Part shown: positions 22,080-50,092 of the stretch, one piece after another
Position numbering within the stretch: the first letter of the stretch is position 1
Layout of the letters: every line of letters begins with the position of its first letter
DNA from: Anolis carolinensis
Lineage: Eukaryota
Reading direction: 5' to 3'
Assembly (NCBI RefSeq): GCF_035594765.1
Contig: NC_085846.1
Span: 7,551,190-7,615,189, forward strand
DNA length: 64,000 nucleotides
The notes under the pieces: model-generated
Database searches by the model: none
What the model was told of the DNA's origin: nothing
The model's input: the letters and a program-made list of their open reading frames with translations, nothing else
Made by a program: the position numbers and the translations under genes

Positions 22080-23076
22080 TATAAATCCCACTTGCCTAGT
22101 TTCCAACAGACTTCCCAACCTCTGAGGGTGCCTGCCATAGATGTGGGTGAAATGTCAGGAGAGAATGCTTCTGGAACATGGCCATACAGCCTGGAAAACG
22201 TACAGCAACCCAGGCTTTGAGATGTTTGACTGCAGCTCCGATCATTCCTCATCCTTATCCATGCGGAATAGGGCTGCGCAGGCCCATCCTTTGTGTAAAG
22301 GATGATGAGATCTGTAGTTGAAAGGATTTGGAAGGTCAAAGGTTCCTCCCAGCCTTGCTTTAACACACGCCAGGTGGAATGGAAATGCAAGGGAGCTTCA
22401 ATAGGAGGATACTGTTTTGGCTGAGAGTTAATCACAATCCCACCGTATTCTGCTTTGGCAGAATAAACCTGTGTCCATTTCTGGTCAAAGCAATGCAAAA
22501 GGGCTCTGGGCAAACTGGAAGGTATCCAGAGAAGGTCAACCAAAAGGTTTGCAAGCCAGGCCCTCTGAGGAACAGATTAGGGGGCTGAGACAGAGGCTAT
22601 GACAATGAAGCAGTAAACAATAGGAAAAACTTCCTGACGATCAGAACTATTCAAAAGTGGAATATACTGCCAGCAGAGTCTCCTTCTCTGGAAGTTTTTA
22701 ATCGGAGGCCAGATGATCATCGGTTGGGAGAGGTTTCACTTGTGTCCCCTGCCTGGCAAAGGGGGTTGGCAGTTTCCTTTGTTTATGCCTTCCCCAGCAC
22801 TTTAATGGGACAATAGTTCTGGTATTGTCCTCTCCCTGATTGTATCTGACACTACTGACACTTTCTTTGGCCCAGTCCCATTTTAGGAGCCAACCCAGGA
22901 TTTTATCAAAGTACAGTATGTCTGTTTTATGTGACCTTATTAGTTTTATGATTTGTTTTATTGTTGATTGATTTGTTTTATTGTGGTGTTTTTCCATTGC
23001 CTGTTTAGCCTGGGCTTGGTCCCATGTAAGCCGCCCCGAGTCCCTTCGGGGAGATGGGGCGGGGTATAAAAATAAA

Positions 23077-23118
<42 letters not shown>

Positions 23119-23119
23119 T

Positions 23120-24003: not shown

Positions 24004-27000
24004 ATGGCTGAAGTGGAGATCTCAGCCCGGGCGTACGTCAAGATGTGCCTCCATGCAGCGCGCTATCCCCATGCGGAGGTGAATGGGCTGCTTTTGGCAC
24101 AGAGGCGGCAGGCCACAGGCGGGCAGCTGGAATGCCTCTGCATCACCGACTGCGTCCCTCTCTTCCACAGCCACCTGTCACTCACAGTGATGCTGGAAGT
24201 GGCCCTTAACCAGGTATGAGTAAAGTGCTAGAGGACTTGATGGTCTCTCGAGTGGCAATATTTCAAGGGGTGGCAATACATTGCTTTCCCCCCATAGAAA
24301 TGTCCCAAGGCTGAATAAGCTTTGGCTAGAGACCTAAGTATATAACTACGGTAGACTCTCTACATTTACAGGTTTAATCTCTTATTATTCATGGATTGGA
24401 TTCAAATGTTTTTATTAGGGATCACTTGGTCCTCTAGCACAATTCTGTGGTCAACCTCTGGTAGAAATTAACCATCGAGTTGCACTGGAAGACATAGAAT
24501 CATATAATCATACAGTTGGAAGAAACCCCCAGGGCCATCCAGTTTAACCCCATTCAGCCATGCATGAAGACACAATCAAAGCCCTCCTAACGGATGGCCA
24601 TCCAGCTTCTGCTGAAAAAGCTCCGGAGAAGGAAACTCCACTTCTCAACAATGACATTCCATCTCCCTTCCTTTGGAGACATGAAAATATCACAATATTG
24701 GTTTCATTCAGGCATCAGAATAATTTAGGGTTTCCTAGAAAGATTATATCAGGCATGGGCAAACTTGGGCCCTCCAGGTGTTTTGGATTTCAACTCCCAC
24801 AATTCCTAACAGCCGGTAGGCTGTTAGGAATTGTGGGAGTTGAAGTCCAAAACACCTGGAGGGCCCAAGTTTGCTCATACCTGGATTATATGTATCACAT
24901 CTGGAAATGTGGTGATCCAATTGTAGAAGAGTTCTAGATGTGAATGGCATTTCATTAGGGAGGGCATAATTCCCATAACTGGTATGGATTTAATATAGCA
25001 GAAGGTTTTTTTTGAACTACAGAAATGTGTGCTGTAACAAATCAACACATCTTCAAAGTTCCATGAGACTGAGAATTAATCCTAGATTAGACGGAGAAGG
25101 AAACAATAGAAGTTTTGTAGGTAAAGGCAAAACTCGTTCCTTATTGTTAGAAGCCAAGGTTTAGGAAATACTCAACCCTTCCTTTAGAATACCCAAATTA
25201 GACTTTTGGAGATGTTTTGCATTGTGGTTACTGCAACTAGTTAAAAATGAGGCATTATGAATAATACTTTATTTGCTTATCAGTCCTGGAACTTGCCTGT
25301 CTTTGCAGGTCGATGCCTGGAGTTTGGAGACAGATTTGCTCCTGGCCGGATATTATCAGGCCAATGCTGGGATTGACGACAAAAGGTGAGTTTAGGCAGC
25401 AGTTTGCAAATGGGGCGGCGTTTCTTTCTCTGTTTTCTTTCTTCCCTTATTTTCCTCCTTTCTCTTTTTCCTGCAGTCCCTCGCTTCTTGCGCAAAAGGC
25501 CGCTGGGCGCATTGCAGAGCTTTACGATCACGCCGTCCTTATTATGGTGAGAGATTGAAATTTGCAAAACAGCGTGTGGATTATTGGGATCCAGATGGAC
25601 AGTATTTATCCTTGCCACAGCCCTTTACTAGTTTCTGATCTTTTTCAGCCCAAAACTGTCTCATTTATGGGCCATTTTCTGGCATATGGGGTGAATTCCT
25701 AGGTGATGAATTGTACAAAAACTTGCCCCAAAGGATTTAGAATACTACAGTGGAAAGCGAAAAAGTTTTAAGTTGTGAATCTGCATTTCATCAGTGAATT
25801 TTAATTTCTATTTTCATTTGTGTATCTTGTTGTATGTGTTTTCATAGTGTTTTATCTGGTTTTAATAATATTGTACATCTTGAGCTGCAGGGAGAGACAG
25901 ATAACAAATATGATTATTGTTAAGTTGCTGTTTGGTCATGTTCCAGAAGCATTTTCTCCTGATGTTTCACCCACACCTATGGCAGGCATCCCCAGAAGTT
26001 GTGAACTCTGTTGGAAACTAGGCAAGTGGGGTTTATATCCCTGTGGAATGATGTCCAGGGTGGGAGAAAGAACTCTTGTCTCTTGGAGGCAAGTGTGAAT
26101 GTTGCAAATTGGCAACCTTGATTAGCAATGACACTCACATTTTCCTCAAACAGAGTTCTTTCTCCCACCCTGGACATTATTCCACAGACATATAAACCCC
26201 ACTTGCTTAATTTCCAACACACTTCACAACTTCTGAGGATGCCTACCATAGATGTGGGTGAAACGTCAGGAGAGAATGCTTCTGGAACATGTCCATACAG
26301 CCCGGAAAACTCACAGCAGCGCTGGGATTCCGGCCATGAAAGCCTTTGACAACACTTTGTTGTTGTTGTTATTTCTCCCTTCCTCCAGATTATTGCACTC
26401 AACCTTTCCAATTTCTTCCCCAGTTAGATAATCACAAATTCACCATAAATCCCAGAGTCCCTCCGATAATCGTATTGGAGCAGAAGGATCGGCAATGGGT
26501 TCCCAAAGACAAAAACCTGTGAGTTGCCGATATCTAGTGGGTGTTGTTATGTGCTTTCAAGTCCAATTTCTTGCTATTTTCTCCTAGGTTTTCCTTGGCC
26601 ATAATTATTGAGGTTTGCCATTGCCTTGGATCACCCAGTAGGTTTCCATGGCAGAGAGGAAATTTAAATCTGTTTTTCATATTTTTAATAATTTTGTGCA
26701 AAGTTCCAAGTCAGGGAAACAAAGTCTACATTGGACCCTCAAAAAGCAAAGATGCTACTATCTCCATCTCCCATTTGGATAATTTTAGATTATGAAATAT
26801 TCTGGATAAGGAATGCTCCACCTGTATTTTATCTATTTATTGACTGTATACCCTTCCTTCTCCCCGAAATTGGGACTCAAAGCATCTTCTCTGCATTCTA
26901 ATCGGTAGAATGAGCCTAACATTTTAGCATTTTACTTTTGGGAAGTTGCACTTTCCAGAAACCCCAAAATAGTTAATGTGCTCACTGTTGGGCTTATTAA

Positions 27001-28919: not shown

Positions 28920-29113
28920 CAGGTCTGGGCCAACTTGGGCCCTCCAGGTGTTTTGGATTGCAACTCCCACCATTCCTAACAGCCTCAGGCCCCTTCCTTT
29001 TGCCCCTCAGCCGCTTAAGCGGCTGAGGGGCAAAAGGAAAGGGCCTGAGGCTGTTAGGAATGGTGGGAGTTGCAGTCCAAAACACCTGGAGGGCCCAAGT
29101 TGGCCCATGGCTG
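28920..29113. mobile_element. Palindromic hAT-like MITE in the EMC9 3' region
   Basis: Same 194-bp palindrome family, starting 86 bp after the EMC9 stop. Confidence 0.85.
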
Positions 29114-29266: not shown

Positions 29267-29376
29267 TCCAAAGGGTCAGGAGTAAGTTAACAGAGAAAAA
29301 GGAAGCAGGAAATTTCAGTGCCTGGCTGCCGGGAAGTCTGTCTGTCTTCCATCTCCAATTTTTTCTCTCTCTCCAC

Positions 29377-32300
29377 TTAATAGATCATCCCTTTGTTTTC
29401 GTCCCGGGGCTTCTTTATCTTGTCGAAGTTCTTCAGCACACTGTCGTAAACCACGGCCTAAGGAGTGCAAAAGAAAATCATGGGTTTGGAGGTTACAGAC
29501 TCCTAAAGTTGGGAGAGACCCTGTGGGTCATCTAGAATCCTAGAGTTTGGAGAGATCTCATGGGTCATCCAATCCAACCCCATTCTGCCCAGAAGCAGGA
29601 AAATCGCATCCAAAGCACACCCGACAGATGGCCATCCAGAGTATATTTAAAAGCCTCCAAAGGAGCTTCTTCTACCACACCCTGGGGCAGAGAGTTCCAC
29701 TGCTGAACAACTCTCACAGTAAGGAAGTTCTTCCTAATGTTCAGGTGGAATCTCCTTTCCTGTAGTTTGAAGCCAATGTTCTGTGTCCTAGTCTCCTGGG
29801 CAGCAAAAAACAAGCTTGGCAGAGAGTTCCACTGCTGAACAACTCTCACAGTGAGGAAGTTCTTTCCAATGTTCAGGTGGAATCCTGTAGTTTGAAGCCA
29901 TTGTTATGTGTCCTAGTCTCCAGGGCAGCAGAAAACAAGCTTACTCCCTCCTCCCTATGACTTCCTCTCACATATTGATCCATGGCCCTCATCATGTATC
30001 TTCTCAGCCTTCTCTTCTGCAGACTAAACATGCCCAGTTCTTTAAGCCGCTCCTCATAGGGCTTTTTCTCCAGACCCTTGATCATTTCAGTCACCCTCCT
30101 CTGGACACATTTCAACTTGTCAACATCTCCCTTGGACACAGTGTGATTCGAGGTGTGGTCTGACCAAGGCAGAATAGAATACAGGGGTAGCATGACTTCC
30201 CTGGATCTAGACACTAGATTCCTATTGATGCAGGCCAAAATCCCATTGGCTTTTTAGCCGCATTGTTTGGGAACACAGAAATGCTGGACCACTCTAACAA
30301 CCACCATGTCAGACTACATAGAGAGGCCATTGAGATCCAAAAGCACATGGACAATTTCAACAGAAAGGAGGAAACCATGAAAATGAACAAAATCTGGCTA
30401 CCAGTATTTTAAAAACTCTAAAATCAGGACAGTAAATAAGTAACAACACTCTGAAAATGGGAATTTTAGATAGGAAACAATCAAGGTCAGCTAATACCTC
30501 CCAACAAAGGATTCCACCCAGGCAGGTTATTTAATGCTAATCAAGGTGGCCAATGGCAACATACACACTTGCCTCCAACAGACAAGAGTTGTGTTGTCGA
30601 AGGCTTTCATGGCCGGGATCACAGGGATGTTGTATGTTTTCCGGGCAATATGGCCATGTTCTAGAAGTATTCTCTCCTGACGTTTCGCCCACATCTATGG
30701 CAGGCATCCTCAGAGATTGTGAGGTATTAGAGAGTTCTTTCTCCCACCCTGGACATTATTCCACAGGTACATAAACCACACTTGCCTAGTTTCCAACAGA
30801 CCTCATAATTTGAGGATGCCTGCCATAGATGTGGACAAAACGTCAGGAGGGAATGTTTCTGGAACACGTCCATACAGCCTCGAAAACTCACAGCAACCCA
30901 AATGTGTATGTATGAACATCGGATAAAAAAGAGTATCTATAGGAAGTTGTGGGTGCGTTCCACGGATCAAGTCCTCCATGTGTATTACTCTACTTCTTTG
31001 CCAAGTAAATGTCTAGGGAAGCAGACAGTTTCTTGGCAAAATGAATGTTGGCAAATGCCCTGGTTTCTGGATCTATTTGACCCGTGGTTCCAAAAATGTG
31101 GAACTGTGGTTCTCCCAGTATCAGCTCTAGTTTTTGAGATACAGAGCATATGCCATATACCTATTTAATCCCATAGAAACTTGTGATAACCATATCTAAG
31201 GAATTAGAGAGAATGGGGGTCTATCCAGTGCAATTTTCTGAATCAGTGTCCCAAATAACCCTGAGTACAAACCTAAAACCAACACAACAAGATTTTTGTT
31301 GTGTTTGGGTTCTAATTTCAATACAAATCCCCCTGTGCTGGTGCAACTTACGTAAATGTTCCTAAGTTCATTGATCATGTACCGGATCTCCGCATATTCT
31401 GCCTCGTCGATCTCATGCACAAGTTGGCGGTAGTCACCCTGCAAGATGCAGAGAAGAACAAGAAAAGTTATAGGGTTTTTGTGTAGCTTTTATTACCATT
31501 AACATGGGATGAAAGAGTCAAACTCACCACGTGTGGGCTCTTGGATGCTTTCGATACCGCGTCGCCTCTTTCAGAATAATACCTGGGGAGAAAAAGACAA
31601 ACAAATGTCAAAATTGAGGTGGGTAACTCATGGGCAGTCAGATTGCAGAAGTTTCTGCCAAAGAGAATTTATTTATTTCATCAATTCAGTGTGAATCCTG
31701 GTCTGTCTTAGTAGCATACAATCCTAGAGTTACAGGGGATCCCCAGTGGTGCAGTGGGTTAAATAATAATAATAACAACAACAACAACTTTATTCTTATA
31801 CCCCGCCACTATCTCTCCGAAGGGACTTGGGGCCGCTTACATGGGGTCGTGTCCAGGTAAAAACAATAATGAAGTAAAGCACATCAAATGAAAGAAAGTG
31901 CAGTTATAAAATTTTAAACATTAACATATAGAGATAAAATAGCAACTTAATAAAACATGATTGAAACACAAAATTTTAAAAACATACAGGGTTAAGTGCA
32001 CCGTATCAATCTGTAGGCATGAGGTACAGTAGAGTCTCACTTATCCAACATTCGCTTATCCAACATTCTGGATTATCCAACGCATTTTTGTAATCAATGT
32101 TTTCAATATATCGTGATTTTTGGGTGCTAAATTCGTAAATACAGTAATTACTACGTAGCATTGCTGCATATTGAACTACTTTTTCTGTCAAATTTGTTGT
32201 ATAACATGATGTTTTGGTACTTAATTTGTAAAATCATAACCTAATTTGATGTTTAATAGGCTTTTCCTTAATCTCTCATTATTATCCAACATATTCGCTT

Positions 32301-33974
32301 ATCCAACATTCTGCCGGCCCATTTATGTTGGATAAGTGAGACTCTACTGTAGCTGATAAACTGCTACCCTTGTGCCGGCAGGACTGCTGACCTGAAGGTT
32401 GCCGGTTCGAATCCAACCTCAGGAGAGCACGGATGAGCTCCCTCTATCAGCTCCAGCTCCATGCAGGGACATGAGAGAAGCCTCTCACAAGGATGGTAAA
32501 AACATCCAGGGCAACGTCCTTGCAGACAGCCAATTCTCTCACACCAGAAGCGACTTGCAGTTTCTCAAGTCGCCCCTGACACAGAAAAAAAGGGGAGATC
32601 CCCAAGGGCCATCCAGTCCAACCCCATTCGGACACACAATCAAAGCTCTCCCAATAGATGGCCATCCACAATGCCTCTATAAAAGGCATGGGCCAACTTG
32701 GGCCGTCCAGGTGTTTTGGACTGCAACTCCCACCATTCCTAACAGCCTCAGGCCCCTTCCTTTTGCCCCTCAGCCGCTTAAGCTGAGGGGCAAAAGGAAG
32801 GGGCCTGAGGCTGTTAGGAATGGTGGGAGTTGCAGTCCAAAACACCTGGGCAGCCCAAGTTCGCCCATACCTGCTCTACAAGCCTTTTCTGGGTTTGGAA
32901 ACTGTCCAGTTCTAGGAATATATGGAAAAAATTATTATGATTCACAAGAGCTGGGTTTCCCACAAAAAGGAATTTATTGTCAGGCGTATTTCAGAATGCT
33001 TTGTCTGTCAAGTGGCAAATTGACAGGGGACGCTGGTAAAAAGGGAGGAAACCGACCCAAAACTTGATGAGGTTGGCTGAAAAACTGGCAGGAAGCATCA
33101 TTTAATTAAGTGCGTGAACAACAGACTCGGGGAACATTACAGGCGACTCCCTCGGCCAATTTAAAATAAAAAAAAAAGGATTGGAGGTTATTTTTTATTT
33201 AACGAGAAGCAGCGAGACATGGGGCTTTAAGACCTGGGTTCAAGTTCCTACTCATGTTGACATTGCTCATATTCCTACCTACTTCTTCAATTCAGTACAA
33301 TGGATCAAAGTCCACAGCGCTGTTTATTTTCCTGCTCCTCCCATATATATGGCCTTTTCCAACAATACATCTGAGTTAACCTTTGCCTTGCCCGTTTTAA
33401 AAGTGCTTTCCCCCATATCTAGAAATAGCAAGGCTTGGAAGCTCCCCACAGTGAATCCACTTTGGGTTGCAGTCCGAACTTTAAATGAAATCTCCAAACT
33501 ACCAAACCTATTGGAGGGAGAGTTTGAGAACAAGGCAAAGAAGCCCTATCACTTCCATTACTCTTTGCACTTGAACCTTGTAAAAAACATTAAAGGAGTG
33601 GAGGGTGAAGGTGCTCATTATGAAATCAAGTTATGGGCACGGCTTACATTTAATGATCAAGTTTTGGTTTAACGATTAAGTTTGCGCTTTTTGGCTCAGC
33701 TGCAGCAGCAAAGATGCTGAGATAATCCAGAAAGGTTCCTGGAGTTTTCAGGGAGAGATTTGCTCACAGGGTTGCTGTGAGTTTTCCAGGCTGTATGGCC
33801 ATGTTCCATAAGCATTCTCTCCTGACGTTTCACCCACATCTATGGCAGGCATCCTCAGAGGTTGTGAGGTCTGTTGGAAACCTCACATTCTGTGGAATGT
33901 TCAGGATGGGAGAAAAAACTCTTGTCTGTTGGAGGCAAGTAAGAATCTTGCAATGAATCCCCTTGATGATGATG

Positions 33975-34024
<50 letters not shown>

Positions 34025-35369
34025 TGAAGAAGGAGACAGAAAGCCTGATCCTTGCAGCCCAGGAGCAAGCCATCAGGACAAATGCAATTAAGGCCAAGAT
34101 CGAAAAATCAGCTGATGACCCAAAATGCAGACTCTGCAAGGAAACCGACGAAACCATTGATCATATCCTCAGCTGCTGTAAGAAAATCACACAGACTACA
34201 AACAAAGGCACAACTATGTCGCCCAAATGATTCATTGGAACTTATGCCTCAAGTACCATCTCCCAGCAGCAAAGAACTGGTGGGATCACAAACCTGCAAA
34301 AGTATTGGAAAATGAGCACGCAAAGATACTGTGGGACTTCCGAATCCAGACTGACAAAGTTCTGGATCACAACACAACAGACATCACAGTTGTGGAAAAG
34401 AAAAAGATTTGGATCATTGATGTCGCCATCCCAGGTGACAGTCGCATTGACGAAAAACAACAGGAAAAACTCAGCTGATATCAGGACCTCAAGATTGAAC
34501 TTCAAAGACTCTGGCAGAAACCAGTGCAGGTGGTCCCGGTGGTGATCGGCACACTGGGTGCCGTGCCAAAAGATCTCAGCCGGCATTTGGAAACAATAGA
34601 CATTGACAAAATTACGATCTGCCAACTGCAAAAGGCCACCCGACTGGGATCTGCATGCATCATCCGAAAATACATCACACAGTCCTAGACACTTGGGAAG
34701 TGTTCGACTTGTGATTTTGTGATACGAAATCCAGCATATCTATCTTTGTTTGCTGTGTCATATAATAAAATAATAATAATAAAAAACTTTATTTATATCC
34801 CGCTCCATCTTTCAAAAGACTTGGGGCGGCTTACACTGGGACAAGCCCAAAACGGTATTACATCAATAAAAATAGTAACACAATAAAATCACAATATAAT
34901 AACACATCTTACAAAATAGCATTGCAGCTTCAAAGCCTGGCTGTTTCCTGCCTGGGGGAATCCTTTGTTGGGAGGTGTTAGCTGGCCCTGATTATTTCTT
35001 GTCCTGAATTCCCGTTTTCTGAGTGTTGTTCTAGAGTGCTGGATCACTCTTGACAACCATTGTGTCAAGACGACACAGAGAAGCCATTGAAATCCACAAG
35101 CATGAGGACAATTTCAACAGAAAGAAGGAAACCATGAAAATGAATACCCAGTCTTTTACAACCTCTTCGTTTTAATTCATGTTTTATTAGTTAGTATTAA
35201 GTTTGCTACTTATTTTTATAGGTTACTGTTTAAGTTTTATAATTGTGCATGTTTTTCGTCCATTGATGTGTTTTACATTGTTATTGTTTTTATCTGGGCT
35301 CGGCCCCATGTAAGCTGCCCCGAGTCCCCTCTGGGGAGACGGAGGCGGGGTATAAAAATAAAGTTGTTG

Positions 35370-35412
<43 letters not shown>

Positions 35413-38400
35413 GAATATTAGGCTATCCGTATTAAAAACTCTAAAATCAGGACAGTAAATAAAGAACAACACACAGAAAACTGGGGAATTCCAGACAGGA
35501 AACAATCAGGGCCAGTTACAAATAAATAATCATAGTAAAACTTTATTTATATACCGCCCTATCTCCCCAAGAGGACTCAGGGCAGTTTCCAACAGAAGCA
35601 AAACATTCAATTGCCTCCTTTTGAGACCATACAACAAAATTAAACATCATGAAACAAAAACATACAATCCTGCTTTTTTTTCCCTGTGTCAGGAGCAACC
35701 GGAGTTGCTACTGGAGTGAGAGAATTGGCCGTCTGCAAGGACGTTGCCCAGGGGACATTGCCCGGATGTTTTGATGTTTTACCATCCTTGTGGGAGGCTT
35801 CTCTCATGTCCCCGCATGTAGCTGGAGCTTACAAAGGGAGCTCATCCACGCTCTCTCCGGGTGGGATTTGAACCTAGCAGCTTTCAGGTCAGGAACCCAA
35901 CCATCAAGTCACGAGGCTTTTATCCCCTAGGCCACCAGAGGCTCCTACAATCATGCTAAAACAAGCACAAAATTTAAAAGTCCAGTTTCAGTTTACGCCA
36001 TCAGATGGGTTCAAAATACCAATGGCCAGAAATTCAGAATGGACATGGCCAACTATAAAGGGCTGGGCAAAGCCTAGCACGACCTCCCAACAAAAGATTT
36101 CCCTCAGGCAGGAAGCAGCCAGGCTTTGAAGCTGCAAGGCTTTTCAATGCTAATCAAGGCGATTCATTGCAACATTTATACTTGCCTCCAACAAACAAAG
36201 AGTTCTTTCTCCCACCCTGGACTTTCCACAGATATATAAACCTCACTTGCCTTACTTGCCTAGTTTCCAACAGACCGCACAACCTCTGAGGATGCCTGCC
36301 ATAGAGGTGGGCAAAACGTCAGGAGAGAATGCTTCTGGAACATCGCGAGAACAATGTGCATTGTTCTGCACACAGACAAGAGTTCTTTCTCCCAAACTGG
36401 ATTTTCCACAGATATATAAACCCCACTTGTCTAGTTTCCAACAGACCTCACAACCTCTGAGGATGCCTGCCATAGAGGTGGGCAAAATGTCAGGAGAGAA
36501 TGCTTCTGGAACATGGCGAGAACAATGTGCATTGTTCTGCAGCTCTGCTCCTGCTGATGCAACCGGATGCAATGTCAGGGTGCTCCATCTCCCTCGGGCT
36601 TGGAGATCTAATCGGTGTGGCACAAACCGGCTCAATCTTCTTTGGATCTGGAGGCAGGGCTGCAACCCGGGAACCAGTTTGCATTCCTCAAGCTGCCAAG
36701 GCCGGGAGGGAGTGGAGAGAAATCCACCAGGAAGCTCCCTTCATCCTCCCTTGTTCCCTCCAGGGAAGGCTGGACGGAGCAGTCGCCTTGTTTGACGTTT
36801 ATTTGTTTTTAATTAGGCAGTTGTGCCTTCGTAGGGCTGGACTAGATGCCTCTGGGTGCCCCTTCCAACTCTTTGCTTCTTATTCTAATCCTGCCCTCTT
36901 CCTGATTTTTTTTCCCGTGAAAAACTGCAAGTCGCTTCTGGTGTGAGAGAATAGGCCATCTGAAAAGACGTTATCCAGGGGACACCCAGATGTTTTACCA
37001 TCCTGTGGGAGGCTTTTCTCATGTCCCTGCATGGGAAGCTGGAGCTGACAGACAAGAGCTCACCCTGCTCCAGATTCGAACTGCTGACCTTTCAGTCAGC
37101 AGTCCTGCCGGCACAAGGGTTTAACCCATTGCGCCATCTCAATGCATTTCCTTTTTTTTGAACTAAAAAATAAAATAGTCTTTTGGAGGATTACAACACC
37201 CCAAATCCACCCAGCCAGGAATTTGTGCATATCCAAGAATCAAAAGCTGGCTGTTTCTCTCCAGTTCTTACTCACTTGCCAATATGTGTTTGAAACCCTT
37301 CCAGCTTCGTTCGGGATGCAGTCAGCAGCTCATACACTTTTTCCTAGGAAAGGAGAAAAGAGCGAGGATAAAATGTGAAAAATAGGATGCGGTCACCGTG
37401 GTGGAAGTTTGAGTTGAGTCCTGGGGTCGACATCTACGGGTGCATCTGTAATGTAGATTTAATGCAGTTCAACATCACTTGAACTGCTATGGCGCAGTGC
37501 TATGGAATCCTGGGAGCTGTAGTTTTACACCATCTTTAGTATGGATGACTACCATAGATGTGGGCGAAATGTCAGGAGAGAATGCTTCTCTAACATGGCC
37601 ATACAGCTCACAACCTGAGGATGCCTGCCATAGATGTGGGCGAAATGTCAGGAGAGAATGCTTCTGGAACATGGCCATACAGCTCACAACCTGAGGATGC
37701 CTGCCATAGATGTGGGCAAAATGACAGGAGAGAATGCTTCTGGAACATGACCATACAGCTCACAACATCTGAGGATGATTACCATAGATATGGGTGAAAT
37801 GTCAGGAGAGAATGCTTCTGGAATATGACCATACAGCTCACAACCTCTGAGGATGACTACTATAAATAGGGGCGAAATGTCAGGAGAGAATGCTTCTCTA
37901 ACATGGCCATACAGCTCACAACTTGAGGATGATTGCCATAGATGTGGGCGAAATGTCAGGAGAGAATGCTTCTGGAACATGGCCATACAGCCTGGAAAAC
38001 TTACAGCAACCCAAAATGTATATTGTTATCATTATTATATCCCGTTTTCTTCTCTTAATGAGACTCGAAGCGACTCAAGCACTAAACACAGTATAAATTA
38101 TAATTTACCGCCTAAACCATATGAAAAAATATTTGCCTGAGTTTGGGTATCTATGGAGGTGGGCATTGGGGGAAACACACTCTCACCTGGACCGCAACCC
38201 CAAAATTATTGCCATCTTCAATCCGGGGCACCAGGAGTTGGAGCCAGAGAGAAATCTGGAAACAAGGGAGGAAGAAAAAGGAGATGATTCGGGATGGATG
38301 TGCCTCTGAGCATGTGCAAACCAACCGATGATTGTGAGCACCGCTTTCCGCTACCAACTCACTATATTCAGTTTCTCTTTTGTTCCTTGGATTTCTGGCT

Positions 38401-41400
38401 TCACCCGGTTCAGCAAAGCGGTGATCTTCTCGTTGTGGCAAATTGGACCACAAGGTGGGGCTGAGAAGAGGAAAAAAAGTTACGGAATTCGAACTCAGAC
38501 CTTCCTTTGAACAAAATGGGAGAGATCTGTACATCAGAGAAGCGGCTTCTCTGCATCTACACTGCAGAATTAATGCAGTTTAACGCCACTTCCGACTACC
38601 GTGCCTCAATGGTATGGATTCATGGGAATTGTAGAACACTTTGGCAGAGAAGGCTAAAGGCCTTGTAAAATTACAACTTCCAGGATCCCATATAGACTCG
38701 AACCATGGCAATTAAGGTGGTGCCAAACTGCATTAACTCTACAGTCTAGACACAACCCAGGATTCCATAGCAGATTTGGAAGTCCCTTGAAAGTGAATGA
38801 AGGAATTCTCCAAATGTCTACCTTTCTCCTCATCATCAGATTTCTTCTTGCTACTTTTTTCTTCTTTGCCAGCATCCTTCTCTTCTTTCTGAATGAGAGG
38901 AACAGATAGACGGATATGGTTGTATATTGATTTTTTTCACCCTGACTTTCCAATGGATATGGTTCCTATGGATATGGTTCATATCCATAATACATAACAT
39001 TAAAAGACAAATAATACCATTCTCAAATGACCCGGGCATCGCCGGGTCCCCAAGCTAGTCTATATATTTAAAAAAATGCAATGTGCATAATTAGGACCGA
39101 GTTAACAACAAAACCACTGGGACAAATTGCACCAAATTTGGCTACAATACTCATCACGTTCCAAGGAGTGACCTTGCAGCTTCAAAGCCTGGCTGCTCCA
39201 TACCTAGGGGACTCCATTGTTGGCCAACTTGAATACCACTGAATAGCCTTGCATCTTCAAAGCCTGGCTGCTCCATACCTAGGGGACTCCATTGTTGGCC
39301 AACTTGAATACCATTGAATAGCCTTGCAGCTTCAAAGCCTGGCTGCTCCATACCTAGGGGACCCCATTGTTGGCCAACTTGAATACCACTGAATAGTCTT
39401 GCAGCTTCAAAGCCTGGCTGCATCATACCTAGGGGACTCCATTGTTGGCCAACTTGAATACCATTGAATAGCCTTGCAGCTTCAAAGCCTGGCTGCTCCA
39501 TACCTAGGGGACTCCATTGTTGGCCAACCTGAATACCATTGAATAGCCTTGCAGCTTCAAAGCCTGGCTGCTTCATACGTAGTGGATTTCATTGTTGCCA
39601 ACTTGAATACCATTGAATAGCCTTGCAGCTTCAAAGCCTGGCTGCTTCATACCTAGGGGACTCCATTGTTGGCCACCTTGAATACCACTGAATAGCCTTG
39701 CAGCTTCAAAGCCTGGCTGCTCCATACCTAGGGGACTCCATTGTTGGCCAACTTGAATACCACTGAATAGCCTTGCAGCTTCAAAGCCTGGCTGCTCCAT
39801 ACCTAGGGGACTCCATTGTTGGCCAACTTGAATATCATTGAATAGCCTTGCAGCTTCAAAGCCTTCTCCCACACAGCAGACCAGAGGGAAGGGAGGAGGA
39901 AAAGCCAAATAATTACAGCGTAGGAAGATCTCTGGGGCAATTATGGGATTCCTGTCCCAGATCGAGACCAAAAGGAAGGCAACAACACCTTGGAAAGCCA
40001 TATTTAAGAATAAAGAGAGATAAAGAGCAGCTCCACCCTATAGTTCAGAAGCGAAGGTGCAAATTAAGTTGGGAAACAAATGGGAGAGAGATCTCAAGCT
40101 TTTGTTTTGCAAAACAACTGAGAAAACAGGGATGCAACCACACTAACCACACTGTTATGCAACCACTAACAGCCGGTAGGCTGTTAGGAATTGTGGGAGT
40201 TGAAGTCCAAAACACCTGGAGGGCCCAAGTTTGCAAATACCTGCTATAGAATGAATGCATCTTGATAGGACTTTATCTGCTAAGGCTTAATACTATAGAA
40301 CTCCCAGGGTTCCATAGCATTGAGACAATGCAGTTAAAGTGCATTAGTTTTACAGTGTAGATGCATCCTATATACCAACTAAACTGCTCTCTTTCCTAAT
40401 TTGGAGGTTTATCCTTGCTTTCCCCAAACTCACTTCTTGCTTTTTGCGCCGTTCTTCGTCCTTCTTCGGGTCCGGCACCGGGATGTCTAGTTCGACACGG
40501 AGCGAGATGAGATCCGAAACATTCAGGTCCGAGAACTAGGGGAGAGAGAGGAAATTCCGTTCATTCCAAACCTTTAATTCATTTTAATCTTGGCATGCAA
40601 GTACTCTCTCTCAGCATGAAAAAATGTAAACAAAACAATATATAAACAAATAAATATATTGTATATACTCGAGTATAAACCTAGTTTTTCAGCCCCTTTT
40701 TTAGGACTAAAAAAGCCCCCCTCGGCTTATACTCGGGTGAGGATCCTGGTTGGCTTATATTTGGGTCAGCTTATACTCAAGAATATATGGTACATTTATT
40801 ATTTTTCTCTATTATTATTGATATTATTACATTTATTATTTTACTCTATTATTATTACATTTATTATTGTACTCTATTATTGTTGCTACTATTACATTTA
40901 TTTTACTCTATTTTTATTTTTAATATTAATACATTTATTACAGTAGAGCCTCACTTATCCAAGCCTCGCTTATCCAAGCCTTTGGATTATCCAAGCCATT
41001 TTTGTAGTCAATGTTTTCAATATATCTTGATATTTTGGTGCTAAATTCGTAAATACAGTAATTACAGCATAACATTACTGTGTATTGAACTACTTTTTCT
41101 GTCAAATTTGTTATATAACATGATGTTTTAGTGCTTAATTTGTAAAATCATAACCTAATTTGATATTTAATAGGCTTTTCCTTAATCCCTCCTTATTATC
41201 CAACATATTCGCTTATCCAAGCTTCTGCCAACCCGTTTAGCTTGGATAAGTGAGACTCTACTATATTTCAATCTGTTATTATTATTATTACATTTATTAT
41301 TCTACTCTATTATTATTAAAAGGATACATAAGCACATTTGCATTAAAGATGAGAATAATGATTTAATCAGAGTTGGACAGTCTTAAATTAGAGCTTGATG

Positions 41401-44400
41401 TAAATATTCAAAAACATTTTAACCTACTGATACCTCAATTAATGTAATTTTTTGGTATCTATTTTTATTTCTGAAATTTCCCACCCTCGGCTTATACTTG
41501 AGTCAATGATTTCCCAGTTTTTTTGTGGTAAAATTAGATGCCTCGGCTTATATCGGGTCGGCTTATATTTGAGTATATATGGTAGGTTTAAACAGGTTGT
41601 ATTTGAGTCATTGAACTAATTTCCAGAAATAATTTCCTTGTACTTTCTTCAGTTTGATTGAATAGGTTTAGATCTTGCCTTTCTTTCCATACTCATATAC
41701 ACTGCAGAATTAATGCAGTTTGATACCACTTTAACTGCCTTAGCTCCATGCTTTGGAAGTTACCATGGGAATTAAGGAGCCTTGTGCCAGCTGAACTGCT
41801 GACCTGAAGACTTGAAGGTCAGGGGTTCGAATTTGCTTCTGACATGACAAAAAAAACAAACCATTGGAATTGTAGTTTGATGAGGCACCAGCACCATTGG
41901 GCAAAGGTGGTCTTGGAAAACTACAACTCCCAGGATTGCATAGCATTGAGCCCATGGCAATTAAAGTGGTATCACTGGGTTGTTGTGAGTTTTCCAGGTT
42001 GTGAATTTTCTCTTTTGATGTTTCACCCACAAAGTGGTATCAAACTGAATTCATTCTACTGTGTAGATGCGCCCAAAGTGTAATAATAAACGGCTCCTTG
42101 GTTTTGCAGCTGAAATAATGACAACTTAAACCACTCACAAAATAGTTCAGTATTACCCACCTTCAGGAGATCGCTGAGTTCCACAATTTTTTCCGGGAAA
42201 CGAGTCGAGACCAGTTCTTCAGCCTTTGGAAATATTGGGTGCCAAAAATAAGGGAGAGGAAAGGAACACGAGAAGGCAAAACATCACGAAACAAAAGGCG
42301 CCTTTTCAGAGCTGTCATGCAACCAAATACCCAAACTAACCAACACACTATTTATATTGTGGAACTAATATTTCGGCAACGTTTCGCTTTTGCAAGAAGG
42401 AAAAACAATTTATTATGAAAGCGAATCATCCAAAAGTGAAAGTTGATCATCATCAGCCCCAAAAAGAACCTAAAAAGATAGGATGATAATAATATATAAT
42501 AATTGATCAATATATATTATCTATATCTATAGATACAGTAGAGTCTCACTTATCCAATGTTCTGGATTATCCAACGCATTTTTGTAGTCAATGTTTTCAA
42601 TACATCGTGATATTTTGGTGCTAAATTCGTAAATACAGTATTACTACATAGCTTTACTGTGTATTGAACTACTTTTTCTGTCAAATTTGTTCTATAACAT
42701 GATGTTTTGGTGCTTAATTTGCAAAATCATAACCTAATTTAATGTTTAATAGGCTTTTCCTTCATCTCTCCTTATTATCCAACATATTCGCTTATCCAAC
42801 GTTCTCCTGGCCCGTTTACGTTGGATAAGCGAGACTGTACTGTATATTGATATAGATAATATAACACCATCACCATCAACTTTTGTCTCTTGACCAAGAC
42901 GCAAAGCAATTCGCAACATTAATAAAGAAGAAATGCAATTTAAAATCCACAATATACATATATCCAATGTATTGTCGAAGGCTTTCATAGCCAGAATCAC
43001 TAGGTTGCTGTGAGTTTTCCGGGCTGTATGGCCATATTCCAGAAGCACTCTCTCCTGACGTTTCACCCACATCTATGGCAGGCGTCCTCAGAGGTTGTGG
43101 GGTCTGTTGGAAACTACAGACCATACAGAGAAGCCATTGAAATCCACAAGATGCATGTGGACAATTTCAACAGAATGGAGGAAACTATGAAAATGAACAA
43201 AAACTGCCCACCAGTATTTAAAAATTCTAAAAACCAGGAAGTAAATAAAGAAGAACATTAAGAAACAGGGACTTCCAGAAGGAAACAATCCAGGCCAGCT
43301 AACACCTCCCAACAAAGGATTCCTCCAGGCAGGAAGCAGCCAGGCTTTGAAGCTGCAAGGCCATACAATGCTAATCAAGCTGGCCAATGGCAACATTCAC
43401 ATTTGCCTCCAACATACAAGAGTTCTTGCTCCCACCCTGGACCTTCCACAGATCTATAAACCCCACTTGCCTAATTTCCAACAGACCTCACAATCTCTGG
43501 GGATGCCTGCCATAGATGTGGGTGAAATTTCAGGAGAGAATGCTTCTGGAACACAGTCATGCAGTCCGGAAAACTCACAGCAACACAGTTATTCTGGCCA
43601 TGAAGGCCTTTGACAATACATTACCATTATATTTATTATCCTTGTTGTTTATATCCAACTTTCATCTCTTGACTGAGACGCAAAGTCCCTCACAACATCA
43701 ATATAAAAACAACGCAATTAAATATCTACAACATGCATATATTAAATCAGGATGAAGCATACAAGTCAATTAAATAATATTACCATCATCATAATGATTA
43801 TTGTTGTGGGCAGAGGAGGACAACAACAACTTTGATCAAGAACCAAACCTGTCTGGAATTTGCTAACTTTGATATTTGATTTCAAAGGCGTACATGGCTG
43901 TCTGTGGGATATGCACTCTGCCCATGCTCAGAAGCTATGTTTCCCCTTTGAAAAAAGGTAACCCGTTCTCACCTGAGCACAGAGCTTCTCCTTGAAGGAC
44001 TTCACCTGAAGAAGAGAAAGTGAAAGAGACAAAGAAGAGAGAGAAATATGAAACTATTGGGAAGGACACCTGCCAGGGCTTTCGAGTTCGATCTCCCCGT
44101 AAATTAATTTTACATCTTAATTTAATAGGTTCCATATAGAGAGGAGAACCTGTTGGATTTCTGCCTGCCAACCCATGGCTTACAAGTGGTGCTAGAGTCC
44201 TCTTTTTGTCTGAACCGCACTCTTGTAGCAAGACATTCAACTGGTAAAGGGAAACCTGTCCTACAAAAAGATATCCAACCAATAAAGCTTCCCAGACCCA
44301 CAATGGGATATCAGTGCAATGCCTATTGGATTTCTGCCTGCATTATTTAAGAAGATTGCTATAACCCAATCTTTTTTAAACCACACTCCTCCAACAGGCA

Positions 44401-46633
44401 GATACCCAACTGGTTGAGTTTCCCAGGTCCACAATGTAGTATCGATACAGAGGGGAAGCTATAGAAAGGTATCCAACTGGTAAAGCTTCCCAGGTTCAAG
44501 ATATCCAACTGGTAAAGCTTCCCAGAACCACAATGTAATATTAACACAAAGGAAAACCTATAGAAAGATATCCAACTGGTAAAGCTTCCCAGGTTCAAGA
44601 TATCCAACTGGTAAAGCTTCCCAGAACCACAATGTAATAATAATAATAATAATAATACTTTATTTGCACCCCACCCTCTTTCTTCAGAGGGAATCAATAT
44701 AATATCAATACAGAGGAGAACCTATACAAAGATATCCAACTGGTAAAGCTTCCCAGAACCACAATGTAATATCAACACAGAGGAAAACCTATAGAAAGAT
44801 ATCCAACTGGTAAAGCTTTATAGACCCACCAATGGAATGTGAATAAGAGAAACTTGCACTACAGCAAGATATCCCACTGGTAAAACTTCCCAAATCGACT
44901 ATTATATCAATGCAGCACTACAGGCAGATATCCAACTGGTAAAGCTTCCCACACAACCATGGAATGCCAATAATGTACCTGCTGGATACTTGCCTGCCAA
45001 ATATTTGCTTTCAAGGAGTGCTAGAACCCTCTTTTTCAACCCACTGCTCCTTATAGGAAGATATTCAACTGGTAAAGCTTCCCAAATCTACAATATTAGA
45101 TCAATGCAGAGAGGAACCTGTACTACAGAACAATATTCAACCGATAAAGCTTCCCAGGCCCACAATTGAACGTTAGTACTGGATTTCTGCCTGCCTTGCC
45201 ATTACTTCCAAGGGATGTTAGAACCCATGCCTCCAGCCCTTTTACTCCACTCTTCCTACAGAAAGATATCCAACTGGTAAAGCTTCCAGACTCACCATGG
45301 AATACAAATAAAGAGAACTTTTTACTACAGACAGATATCCAACTGGTAAAGCTCCCCAGACCCACAATGTAATATTAATACAGAAGGGAACCTGTCCTAT
45401 AGAAAGATATCCAACTGGTAAAGCTTCATAGACTCAACAATAGAATATCAGTATGAGAACCTTGTACTACAGACAGATACCCAACTGGTAAAGCTTCCCA
45501 GACCCACAATGTAATATTAATACAGAAGGGAACCTGTCCTATAGAAAGATATCCAACTGGTAAAGCTTCCAGACCCATCATGGAATACAAATAAAGAGCA
45601 CCTTGTACTACAGACAGATATCCAACCGGTAAAGCATCTCAGACCCACAATGTAATATCAATATAGAGGGGAACTTGTCCTATCGAAAGATATCCAACTG
45701 GTAAAGCTTCCAGACCCACCATGGAATACAAATAAAGAGAACCTTGTACTACAGAGAGATACCCAACTGGTAAAGCTTCCCAGACCCACAATGTAATATT
45801 AATACAGATGGGAACCTGTCCTATAGAAAGATATCCAACTGGTAAAGCTTCCAGACCCACTATGGAATACAAATAAAGAGAACCTTGTACTACAGACAGG
45901 TATCCAACTGGTAAAGCTTCCCAGACCCACAATGTAATATCAATATAGAGGAAAACCTGTCCTATAGAAAGATATCCAACTGGTAAATCTTCCAGACCCG
46001 CCATGGAATACAATAAAGAGAACTTTGTACTACAGACAGATATTCAACTGGTAAAGCTTCCCAGACCCACAATGTAATATCAATATAGAGGAAAACCTGT
46101 CCTATAGAAAGATATCCAACTGGTAAATCTTCCAGACCCGCCATGGAATACAATAAAGAGAACTTTGTACTACAGACAGATATCCAACTGGTAAAGCTTC
46201 CCAAATTGACTGTATTATATATCAACATAAAGAGAGGAACCCGTACTACAGACAGAAATCCAACTGGTAAAGCTTCCCAGATCAACAATGTAGTATCAAT
46301 ACAGAGATGAACCTGTAAGAAAGATATCCAACTGGTAAAGCTTCCCACACCACCATGTAATACCAATACAGTACCTGTTGGATTTTTACCTCCCCAGAAC
46401 CCACTTTAATGTTGTTCCAGTCTAGACATGGGCCAACCTGGGCCCTCCAGGGGTTTTGGACTTCAACTCCCACAATTCCTAACAGCCTACCGGCTGTTAG
46501 GAATTGTGGGAGTTGAAGTCCAAAACCCCTGGAGGGCCCAGGTTGGCCCATGCCTGTTCCAGGTAGTTTAGGAGTCAAAAGAGCCGAGCTTTACCTGGGC
46601 CTCGCATTCTGGGGGCACCTCCAAGGTGGCCAT
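29377..46633 (-). CDS. PSME1: Proteasome activator PA28 alpha (11S regulator subunit 1), 11 coding exons
   Basis: Exons (minus): 46633-46595 (MATLEVPPECEAQ), 44005-43973, 42223-42161, 40535-40434 (LDIPVPDP), 38888-38822 (KEKE-like), 38460-38363, 38255-38187 (VPRIEDGNNFGVAVQ), 37343-37276, 31582-31528, 31438-31352, 29457-29377 (..KKPRDENKGMIY*). Confidence 0.98.
29505..30260 (-). mobile_element. CR1 LINE 3' fragment
   Basis: ORF2 C-terminal remnants (CINRNLVSRSREVMLPLYS..YEERLKELGMFSLQKRRLR; FHLNIRKNFLTVRVVQQWNSLP). Confidence 0.9.
30676..30716 (-). ncRNA. Minimal hammerhead ribozyme motif, intact core, sense in PSME1 intron 10
   Basis: Minus strand reads tct-CTGAGGA-T-GCCTGC-catagat-GTGGGC-GAAA-C-GTC-agg. 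Confidence 0.6.
31735..32590 (+). mobile_element. tRNA-derived SINE with Vingi-like tail, interrupted by a LINE end and a MITE; related copies 23600-23820, 35675-35945, 36905-37138 (minus)
   Basis: Head GGTGCAGTGGGTTA..GGTTCGAATCC; tail GTCGCCCCTGACACAG-A7. Confidence 0.7.
32684..32873. mobile_element. Palindromic hAT-like MITE (long form)
   Basis: Same family as 8196-8389. Confidence 0.8.
33821..33861 (-). ncRNA. Minimal hammerhead ribozyme motif, sense in PSME1 intron 8
   Basis: Minus strand reads cct-CTGAGGA-T-GCCTGC-catagat-GTGGGT-GAAA-C-GTC-agg. Confidence 0.55.
34024..34720 (+). mobile_element. R4/Dong-clade LINE 3' fragment (CCHC knuckle + restriction-like endonuclease)
   Basis: CRLCKETDETIDHILSCC; KILWDFRIQTDK..DITVVEKKKIWIIDVAIPGD; frameshifted; (TAA)n on both sides. 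Confidence 0.85.
37543..38012 (+). repeat. Six head-to-tail 76-78 bp units, each centred on the Penelope hammerhead motif
   Basis: (C/T)TGAGGA at 37615, 37691, 37769, 37847, 37923, plus a 5'-truncated first unit at 37543. Confidence 0.9.
39172..39865. repeat. ~9 copies of a 75-bp unit inside a Helitron-like element
   Basis: Unit CCTTGCAGCTTCAAAGCCTGGCTGCTCCATACCTAGGGGACTCCATTGTTGGCCAACTTGAATACCACTGAATAG; explains the 25-aa repeats in ORFs 39154-40001. Confidence 0.95.
43054..43094 (-). ncRNA. Minimal hammerhead ribozyme motif, sense in PSME1 intron 2
   Basis: Minus strand reads cct-CTGAGGA-C-GCCTGC-catagat-GTGGGT-GAAA-C-GTC-agg. Confidence 0.5.
44145..46400. repeat. Complex tandem array (~29 copies of a 25-bp core, ~70-bp period, ~140-bp dimer) filling PSME1 intron 1
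   Basis: Core GATATCCAACTGGTAAAGCTTCCCA with alternating related spacers. Confidence 0.95.
46424..46555. mobile_element. Palindromic hAT-like MITE (short form), 40 bp past the PSME1 exon 1 donor
   Basis: CATGGGCCAACCTGGGCCCTCCAGGGG...CCCCTGGAGGGCCCAGGTTGGCCCATG. Confidence 0.85.
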
Positions 46634-46639
46634 GCTGGG

Positions 46640-48683: not shown

Positions 48684-50092
48684 ATGTATTATTTTACTCT
48701 ATTATTATTAAAAGGATACATAAGCATATTTACATGGAAGATGATGAGAATAATGATTTGATCAGAGTTGGACAGTCTTATCTTAAATTTGAGCTTTATG
48801 TAAATATTCAAAAACATTTAACCTACTGATGCCTCAATTAATGTAATTTTATTAGTATCTATTTTTATTTCTGAAATTTCCCACCCTCGGCTTATACTGG
48901 AGTCAATGTTTTCCCACTTTTTTTGCGGTAAAATTAGGTGCCTCGGCTTATATTCGGGTCGGCTTATACTCGAGTATATGCGGTATATATCTGTGGAATA
49001 ATATCCAGGCTGGGAGAAAGAACTCTTGTCTGTGAATGTTACAATTGGCCTTCCTGATTAGCATTTCATAGCCTTGTAGCTAGCAGTTTGAAAACATGCA
49101 AATGTGAGTAGATCAATAGGTACCGCTCCGGCGGGAAGGTAACGGGTCTCCATGCAGTCATGCCGGCCACATGACCTTGGAGGTGTCTATGGACAACACC
49201 GGCTCTTCAGCTTAGAAATGGAGATGAGCACCAACCCTAGAGTCGGACACGGCTGGAGTTAATGTCAGGGGAAAACCTCTACCAGCTTCAAAGCCTGGCT
49301 GATTCCTGCCTGGGGGATCCTTTGTTGGGAGGTGTTAGCTGGCCCTGATTGTTTTCCTGTCTGGAATTCCTCTGTTCTTTGAGCTTTGCTCTTTATTACT
49401 AACCTAATTTAAGAGTTTTTTCAATGCTGAGAAACAGATTTTGTTCAAGGAACGTGAAAGGCATTGCAGACTAACCCAACCAGAGAAGTGAGCCATAGCA
49501 GAACATTTGGTGAACCAACCTGGACACAGCATATTATCTGAGAACACACTTGATCTTAGCCAAAAGGCCGGGAAGCAATTTGAGAACACAGAAATGCTGG
49601 ACCACTCTAGCAACCACTGTGTCAGATTACACAGAGAAGCTGTTGAGATCCACATGCAGGTGGACAATTTCAACAGAAAGGAGAAAAACATGAAAATGAA
49701 CAAAATCTGGTTACCAGTATTATAAAACTCCAAAATCAGGACAGTAAATAAAGAACAACATTCAGAAAATGGGAATTCCAAACAGGAAACAATCAGGGCC
49801 AGCTAATACCTCCCAACAAAGGATTTCCCTAGGCAGGAAGCAGCCAGGCTTTGAAGCTACAAGGCTATTAAATGCTAATCAAGGTGATGAATTGCAACAT
49901 TCACACGGCTCCAACAGACAAAGAGTTCTTTCTCCCACCTGGATATTATTCCACGGATATCTAAACCCACTTGTCTAGTTTCCAGCAGATCTCACTGTCT
50001 CTGAGGATGCCTGCCATAGATGTGGGCGAAACGTCAGGAGATAACATGAGTCTACACTGCTTCTGGAACATGGCCATAAACTCACAGCAACC
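47318..50092. mobile_element. Penelope-like element (inverted pseudo-LTRs, GIY-YIG C-terminal remnant 49445-49725) hosting a nested MITE, two Sauria SINEs (47574-47795, 49078-49283) and an R4/Dong LINE (47960-48568)
   Basis: ERHCRLTQPEK*AIAEHLVNQPGHSI..FENTEMLDHS..RLHREAVEIH..DNFNRKE; TSD TATACTCGAGAAT around the first SINE; TTTCACTCTGGTCTTATTATT duplicated around the LINE. Confidence 0.85.
49998..50038 (+). ncRNA. Minimal hammerhead ribozyme motif, consensus copy
   Basis: tct-CTGAGGA(50001-50007)-T-GCCTGC-catagat-GTGGGC-GAAA-C-GTC(50033-50035)-agg. Confidence 0.6.

What the first reader, a model, noticed from the sequence alone, without database searches (positions are those of the whole stretch)
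30676..43094. Intact hammerhead ribozyme motifs on the sense strand of PSME1 introns
The Penelope pseudo-LTR motif folds as a minimal type I hammerhead: 3-bp helix I, CUGAGGA, one extra nucleotide, 6-bp helix II, GAAA, palindromic ACGU, GUC cleavage site. Such minimal hammerheads are known from Penelope-like elements and are thought to act as dimers. Within PSME1, all three sense copies (43054-43094, 33821-33861, 30676-30716) keep the full core. The antisense copies (~30810, ~36286, ~36457, ~43497 and the 37.5-kb array) each have core or helix defects. An intact sense copy also lies in EMC9 (26230-26270). Inference: several copies in one pre-mRNA could pair through helix III and cut introns co-transcriptionally. 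The numbers are small, so the strand bias may be chance.
Basis: partly seen in the sequence, partly recalled or inferred. Interest (0 to 1): 0.7.

Follow-up and report, generated by a model that had tools for sequence, protein, structure and literature searches.

The report
Decaying Penelope hammerheads in lizard introns
These are leftover ends of a very common lizard jumping gene whose small self-cutting RNA motif has already been described and tested; the three copies in this gene look intact, but a wider sample of introns shows no significant strand preference, so they are likely silent passengers.

Summary
The motifs are present as described: three sense copies in PSME1 introns keep the hammerhead core, and ten antisense copies are damaged. 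They are truncated ends of a Penelope element matching anole PAc/Poseidon (PMC11167929): cut site 26 nt after the ATG, copy ends at about +83 and +114-123. The genome holds 19,343 copies with an intact core. Published PAc hammerhead cleaves only with PAc protein, and no RNA-seq ends were found at its cut site. In 1.92 Mb of gene interiors (99 full copies), 13 of 43 sense and 10 of 56 antisense copies were intact (P=0.16; arrays collapsed 13/43 vs 10/49, P=0.34). That excludes an all-or-none rule but not a weak trend. In sense copies the core decays as fast as the loop (3.2% vs 3.3%). Two of the three PSME1 copies are predicted to be locked by upstream antisense copies, two carry G10.1-U11.1, and the three lie in separate introns. 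Broken sense copies sit in neighbouring genes. The scan has noted this element before on other DNA. Known and ordinary.

The parts
43054..43094 (-). Hammerhead motif, sense in PSME1 intron 2; core kept, G10.1-U11.1, element start codon reads ACG; predicted cut after 43057
42967..43114 (-). Short inverted arm of a Penelope insertion (hammerhead plus 30-40 nt tail, ends about +117-119 of the element ORF)
43115..43620 (+). Long arm of the same insertion (inferred from direct abutment): endonuclease C-terminal remnant, pseudo-LTR and damaged antisense hammerhead 43494-43534
33821..33861 (-). Hammerhead motif, sense in PSME1 intron 8; core kept, G10.1-U11.1; element ends at +83 (33770); predicted cut after 33824
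30676..30716 (-). Hammerhead motif, sense in last PSME1 intron; consensus except U-G in helix I; predicted cut after 30679
30591..30730 (-). Sense stub (hammerhead plus tail), flanked by a 6-bp repeat at 30585 and 30731; likely inserted into the antisense copy
30251..30899 (+). Antisense Penelope end interrupted by the stub above: endonuclease C-terminal remnant, pseudo-LTR, damaged hammerhead 30807-30847
36283..36494 (+). Two antisense hammerhead copies (36283-36323, 36454-36494), both G12 to A; same intron as, and upstream of, the 33821 copy
37536..37960 (+). Tandem array of six antisense units of about 76-78 bp in intron 7, all with an altered ACGU palindrome
29375..46634 (-). Host gene PSME1 (PA28 family), 11 coding exons
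26230..26270 (+). Sense copy in EMC9 (UPF0172) intron, core kept, wobble pairs in helix I and at 10.1-11.1; inverted antisense partner at 25958-25998 is damaged
22119..22159 (+). Broken sense copy upstream of the first EMC9 coding exon (in a 5' intron if the gene starts near 20.3 kb, inferred); counter-example
18357..18397 (+). Broken sense copy (C3 to G) in the last intron of the second PA28 gene (PSME2); counter-example
49998..50038 (+). Intact consensus copy between PSME1 and the FIT-family gene, antisense to both; preceded by endonuclease remnant and pseudo-LTR

Best explanation
The three motifs are the hammerheads of truncated copies of a high-copy Penelope-like retroelement (likely PAc/Poseidon of the green anole) lying in PSME1 introns, where they are likely silent passengers decaying by mutation. 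The hammerhead sits in the pseudo-LTR across the element's start codon, and reverse transcription starts just downstream of it (published), so most 5'-truncated insertions carry it (inferred). After insertion it decays mainly at its two CpG sites (shown in the sample). In the pre-mRNA it is predicted to misfold or to pair with nearby antisense copies. The copies also end at +83 to +119, short of the first 172 nt that the element's protein needed in vitro, so protein-assisted folding would be impaired (inferred). The sense-intact pattern in PSME1 is likely a small-number coincidence, helped by the 30676 copy likely being younger than its antisense host.
For: Copy number: 12,921 exact 40-mers; 47,251 exact helix II/loop 18-mers, of which 19,343 (41%) keep the whole core. 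PAc landmarks: 26 nt between start codon and cut in 5 of 5 copies checked; of 122 sampled copies, 47 end at +81-83 and 42 at +113-123, matching the two RT start sites and 30-40 nt tail of PMC11167929; an ORF with a GIY-YIG-like motif (read by eye) runs into the pseudo-LTR and hammerhead at L095. Orientation test on 200 stretches (1.92 Mb) inside Pfam-oriented genes: 99 full-span copies of 138 hits; intact 13/43 sense vs 10/56 antisense, OR 1.98 (0.70-5.76), P=0.16; core letters only 21/43 vs 24/56, P=0.68; arrays collapsed 13/43 vs 10/49, P=0.34. No depletion of sense copies (43 vs 56, P=0.23). Main subfamily (80 of 99): non-CpG core 31/795 changed vs loop 21/557 (P=1.0); sense core 11/347 vs sense loop 8/242; CpG sites 85/319; 51 of 76 non-intact copies have a CpG-type defect. 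Folding: helix I probability about 0 in all contexts tried; with upstream sequence, 30676 and 43054 are 92% and 87% paired to outside sequence. PMC11167929: no cleavage without PAc protein, no RNA-seq reads starting or ending at the site. PMC4209133: monomer inactive, dimers and trimers low. Spliced junctions across introns 10 and 2, and exon 8 letters joined to exon 9, appear in presumed RNA contigs.
Against: At the sampled base rate, 3/3 sense and 0/5 antisense has probability 0.003-0.009 for one gene picked in advance. Among 21 inverted pairs, 6 had only the sense arm intact and 3 only the antisense arm. Flank divergence does not clearly separate the PSME1 sense and antisense copies by age. 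Nearest-neighbour energies ignore tertiary structure, Mg2+ and proteins. Contigs cannot show RNA ends, so cleavage was not tested. Identity with PAc rests on landmarks; the paper's sequence file (.gbk) and figures could not be read. The sampled genes are four or five protein families, and 40 of the 200 stretches are extensions assumed to be intragenic.
Confidence: 0.85

Rival explanations
1. One reading: intact sense copies in one PSME1 pre-mRNA pair through the ACGU palindrome and cut introns during transcription, and are kept intact for that role.
For: Core, palindrome and helices are present in 3 of 3 sense copies. Minimal Penelope hammerheads show low cleavage as dimers or trimers in vitro (PMC4209133). 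An intronic ribozyme that tunes splicing is reported for CPEB3 (PMC10919898).
Against: Separate introns, 3.1 and 9.2 kb apart. The active-like dimer (-11 kcal/mol) is far above two misfolded monomers (-25 to -27) and sense/antisense duplexes (-67 to -80). PAc RNA at 500 nM did not cleave without protein. No core-specific conservation in 35 sense copies. Slow hammerheads in introns were reported not to block splicing (as summarised in PMC2995048 and PMC10919898).
Confidence: 0.04
2. A weak genome-wide excess of intact sense copies is real, and reflects occasional cleavage triggered in trans by the element's own protein in cells where it is expressed, or some other selective or mutational asymmetry.
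For: OR 1.5-2.0 for full intactness in the pooled and collapsed analyses; window genes 4/6 vs 0/7; the PAc hammerhead is protein-assisted and the element is transcribed (PMC11167929).
Against: No subset is significant. Antisense copies are slightly more changed in most site classes, including the loop, which points to age or noise, not to the core. CpG transitions are symmetric between strands (42 vs 39 of 160 each). Harmful cleavage would predict fewer intact sense copies, not more. The stubs lack +120 to +172.
Confidence: 0.09
3. The functional feature, if any, is the long sense/antisense hairpin formed by inverted arms in the pre-mRNA (a possible editing or splicing-modulating structure), not the ribozyme.
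For: Predicted stable duplexes at 30.6-30.9 kb and 43.0-43.6 kb; 56 of 99 sampled copies have an inverted partner within 700 nt.
Against: Inverted arms are the ordinary product of Penelope insertion (PMC8557442). No editing or conservation evidence was obtained here.
Confidence: 0.02

Closest known systems
Hammerhead of PAc (Repbase Poseidon_Ac, Anolis carolinensis); Frangieh et al. 2024, PMC11167929 (read: parts 1-2 of 4 of the text, further passages; supplements searched without a hit, .gbk unreadable)
   Same: ORF start at helix II, cut 26 nt after the start codon, C3 and G8 before the start codon, copy ends clustered at two sites 30-40 nt apart with the far one at about +111-118, endonuclease C-terminus followed by pseudo-LTR.
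   Different: These copies are stubs with no RT and no sequence beyond about +119, have point changes, and lie in host introns. Letter-for-letter identity to the published sequence was not checked.
Minimal type I hammerheads of metazoan Penelope-like elements; Cervera and De la Pena 2014, PMC4209133 (read: parts 1-2 of 4)
   Same: Short helix I, long helix II, extra nucleotide between 9 and 10.1, palindromic 15.2-16.2 region, mostly dispersed single copies, opposite-strand pairs 100-700 bp apart.
   Different: Two of three copies have G10.1-U11.1 instead of G-C. The parts read test Schistosoma, Drosophila and fungal examples, not the anole one.
Domesticated intronic ribozymes: CPEB3 HDV-like ribozyme (PMC10919898, passages) and amniote intronic hammerheads (mention and citation in PMC6765202 and PMC10919898 only)
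   Same: Self-cleaving motif on the sense strand of an intron.
   Different: Those are described as conserved, and CPEB3 self-cleaves with a 2-3 min half-life. These are members of a repeat with tens of thousands of copies whose core changes as often as its loop.

Membership tests
Minimal type I hammerhead of Penelope-like elements | Conserved core CUGANGA, GAAA and a UH cleavage site | tested here: met
   3 of 3 sense copies
Minimal type I hammerhead of Penelope-like elements | Helix II of 6 or more pairs with an extra nucleotide after A9 | tested here: met
   Helix II pair probability 0.95-0.98 in the isolated 41-mers; 7 of 19 second-subfamily copies replace both central wobble pairs with Watson-Crick pairs
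Minimal type I hammerhead of Penelope-like elements | G10.1-C11.1 pair | tested here: inconclusive
   Met in 30676 and in the family majority; G-U in 33821 and 43054
Minimal type I hammerhead of Penelope-like elements | Palindromic helix III allowing a dimer | tested here: met
   ACGU in 3 of 3; the dimer itself is not favoured in the energy model
Minimal type I hammerhead of Penelope-like elements | Self-cleavage | not testable with these tools
   Only contigs were available
Rfam hammerhead families | Covariance-model match | tested here: not met
   No hammerhead family among 75 matches at E<=5 over the window; lowers membership in the Rfam models, not the resemblance
PAc / Poseidon_Ac Penelope-like element | Cut site 26 nt downstream of the ORF start codon, which lies at the start of helix II | tested here: met
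   5 of 5 copies checked; 43054 reads ACG at that codon
PAc / Poseidon_Ac Penelope-like element | Insertion ends at two RT start sites, giving a 30-40 nt tail | tested here: met
   47 of 122 ends at +81-83 and 42 of 122 at +113-123
PAc / Poseidon_Ac Penelope-like element | C-terminal GIY-YIG endonuclease upstream of the pseudo-LTR | tested here: inconclusive
   A GIY-YIG-like motif is seen by eye in the L095 ORF contiguous with the window's remnant peptide; no Pfam hit; the ten PF01541 loci carried no such pseudo-LTR
PAc / Poseidon_Ac Penelope-like element | Full RT-endonuclease ORF | tested here: inconclusive
   No such ORF beside these copies; relatives of the endonuclease end number 21,155 candidates, with open frames up to 645 aa among the 150 scored, but the RT was not examined
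PAc / Poseidon_Ac Penelope-like element | Sequence identity to the Repbase consensus | not testable with these tools
   Supplementary .gbk unreadable; text supplements hold no match
Domesticated intronic ribozyme | Core conserved beyond neutral sites in sense copies | tested here: not met
   Sense core 11/347 vs sense loop 8/242; tested on the family sample, not on orthologues of the PSME1 copies
Domesticated intronic ribozyme | Orthologous copy conserved across species | not testable with these tools
   The genome has no relatives here

The most novel reading that the evidence does not exclude
Thousands of intact sense-strand Penelope hammerheads in anole introns form a latent, protein-switched network: where the element's own protein is expressed it folds and fires them in trans, cutting host pre-mRNAs such as PSME1, and this leaves a weak genome-wide excess of intact sense copies.
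Probability: 0.06. Interest if true: 0.7.

Novelty: already known. Interest (0 to 1): 0.14.

Why it matters
If intronic Penelope hammerheads cut pre-mRNA, a lizard genome with about 19,000 intact copies would carry a large, transposon-controlled layer of RNA processing. The evidence here says they most likely do not: the sample shows neutral-looking decay and no significant strand bias. The useful by-product is a first, small orientation test for this family, which sets the size (about 300 copies per strand) that a decisive annotated test needs.

Tried and rejected
Rfam scan at E<=5: no hammerhead family. Transcription-linked CpG asymmetry as a neutral cause of the bias (G-U tolerated on one strand, G12 lost on the other): fits six of the window copies by eye but rejected in the sample, 42 vs 39 of 160. 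Shielding model (intact sense copies survive only beside an antisense arm): paired 8/25 vs 6/31, unpaired 5/18 vs 4/25, same odds ratio. Age as the full explanation: flank mismatches do not separate the PSME1 copies clearly. Pooling window and sample gives 17/49 vs 10/56, P=0.07; not used, because the window generated the hypothesis. Sequencing runs: no RNA holder listed on record; all were contigs, RNA status guessed, so RNA ends could not be examined. PF01541 search did not lead to a full element. Lunse et al. 2017 on dimer cleavage was not held under the DOI I recalled; seen only as a citation. One paper search for an orientation-bias study of these hammerheads listed 6 papers, none on that by title or abstract start; this is not proof that none exists. 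Rows dropped before counts: 39 of 138 BLAST hits did not span the 41-mer; 19 second-subfamily copies were left out; domain intervals under about 7 kb were mostly not fetched.
Full report
Observation. A scan of both strands finds 25 matches to the 41-nt motif in the window, some truncated. The three named copies are on the minus strand, which is the sense strand of an 11-exon PA28 gene (exons; PA28_N and PA28_C hits). They lie in introns 2, 8 and 10. Each has CUGAGGA, one extra nucleotide, a 6-bp helix II, GAA-ACGU-C and a 3-bp helix I. Ten antisense copies in the gene are all damaged. The description is therefore correct. Three points weaken it. Copies 33821, 43054 and 26230 have G10.1-U11.1, whereas PMC4209133 lists G10.1-C11.1 as highly conserved. 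Broken sense copies at 18357 (second PA28 gene) and 22119 (EMC9 5' intron, inferred) were not mentioned. Rfam gives no hammerhead match among 75 hits at E<=5.

What it is. The motif is a genome-wide repeat: 12,921 exact 40-mers, 47,251 exact helix II/loop 18-mers, and 19,343 of those with the whole core; reversed controls are 0. It matches the landmarks of the anole Penelope element PAc (PMC11167929). The cut lies 26 nt after a start codon placed at helix II in 5 of 5 copies checked. Of 122 sampled copies, 47 end at +81-83 and 42 at +113-123, matching the two reverse-transcription start sites and the 30-40 nt tail. Endonuclease C-terminal remnants precede the pseudo-LTR at 30251, 43115 and 49561. 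A longer copy at L095 extends this peptide into a GIY-YIG-like motif read by eye (no Pfam hit). The 43.0-43.6 kb unit has the inverted-arm layout described for these elements (PMC8557442 passages). The 30591-30730 stub is flanked by a 6-bp repeat and interrupts an antisense copy, so it is likely the younger of the two. The paper's sequence file could not be read, so identity rests on landmarks.

What is published on activity. The PAc hammerhead cleaved only when PAc protein was added; core mutants abolished cleavage; cleavage was not needed for insertion; no RNA-seq reads began or ended at the site; and the first 172 nt of the ORF were the minimum template. The PSME1 copies stop at +83 to about +119. 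For Schistosoma minimal hammerheads, monomers were inactive and dimers or trimers low. Two papers summarise that slow hammerheads placed in introns did not block splicing while fast ribozymes did (passages).

Strand-bias test. I oriented gene interiors by collinear Pfam exon hits (myosin, kinesin, anoctamin, SNF, HECT) and fetched 200 stretches, 1.92 Mb; 160 lie between domain exons and 40 are mostly extensions assumed intragenic. The sample is representative for the exact motif (14 found, 13.4 expected). Of 138 hits, 99 span the motif. With arrays collapsed it is 13/43 vs 10/49 (P=0.34). Sense copies are not significantly depleted (43 vs 56, P=0.23). None of the ten sampled genes or stretches with four or more copies repeats the PSME1 pattern. 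In the main subfamily (80 of 99), non-CpG core sites differ at 31/795 and loop sites at 21/557 (P=1.0); in sense copies 11/347 and 8/242; CpG sites at 85/319. The core thus shows no sign of protection after insertion. Against my reading: every intactness measure leans towards sense, the PSME1 pattern would have probability 0.003-0.009 for a gene chosen in advance, and about 300 copies per strand are needed to detect an OR of 1.7. The all-or-none rule is refuted; a weak trend is open.

Folding (predictions). Alone, each 41-mer forms helix II but pairs its CUGA core with the UCAG at the cut site, and helix I has probability near 0. With upstream sequence, 30676 and 43054 are 92% and 87% paired to outside sequence, namely antisense arms transcribed earlier; 33821 is 30-61% paired outside, and has antisense copies 2.4-2.6 kb upstream in the same intron. 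The active-like dimer evaluates at about -11 kcal/mol, two misfolded monomers at -25 to -27, and sense/antisense duplexes at -67 to -80. These energies omit tertiary contacts, Mg2+ and proteins.

Expression. Only contigs of runs guessed to be RNA were available. They show junctions skipping intron 10 (three runs) and intron 2 (one run), and exon 8 letters joined to exon 9 (one run). So spliced PSME1 RNA is likely made; contigs cannot show cleavage ends.

Verdict. Real, known and ordinary: decaying ends of a published element. Earlier AI notes of this scan reached similar readings on other parts of this genome; I saw them after my own tests and do not count them as support.

Noticed in passing
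window 42223-42557 (run X4 record 9; also low-depth contigs in X7, X13): In one presumed RNA run the main spliced PSME1 contig continues from exon 3 into the 3' part of intron 2 instead of exon 2. A cut at 43057 would give such a molecule, but so would partial splicing or an assembly path choice; X7 also has a contig on the 5' side of the motif. Not diagnostic.
   Followed up: partly
L177:3833-4298 (sense-oriented coordinates), L193, S9, S18 and others: A second subfamily (19 of 99 copies) has a changed helix II 3' strand, in 7 copies replacing both wobble pairs with Watson-Crick pairs, and often varies at the free N7 position; this suggests structure is maintained in the active lineages.
   Followed up: partly
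window 7630-7827: Head-to-head pair of hammerhead stubs, one truncated and one with G8 to A, in an intron of a minus-strand gene (RNF31 by recalled synteny, not tested).
   Followed up: no
window 51323-51467: Another inverted pair of damaged hammerhead stubs about 1 kb past the end of the FIT-family gene.
   Followed up: no
window 47370-47410 (-): Copy upstream of the PSME1 start with a GUU instead of GUC cleavage triplet.
   Followed up: no
window 44230-46360, 39170-39865, 27740-28320, 8900-11190: Four unrelated tandem arrays (PSME1 introns 1 and 4, an EMC9 intron, and the region between two gene starts).
   Followed up: no
window 34023-34760 (+), 47960-48570 (-), 23115-23419 (-): 3' fragments of a different non-LTR element flanked by AAT/ATT microsatellites; the 33821 stub's upstream end lies about 100 nt from the first.
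   Followed up: no
window 8222-8363, 11640-11781, 28946-29087, 32709-32847, 24776-24857, 46449-46530: Near-perfect palindromic repeats that give spurious miRNA-family matches below Rfam's gathering scores.
   Followed up: no
G000:C6:7.06 Mb, C20:3.33 Mb, C23:0.30 Mb, C25:0.75 Mb; C24:1.05 Mb and C74: Kinesin and HECT exon sets with near-identical scores on several contigs, suggesting recent duplications or redundant haplotype contigs in the assembly.
   Followed up: no
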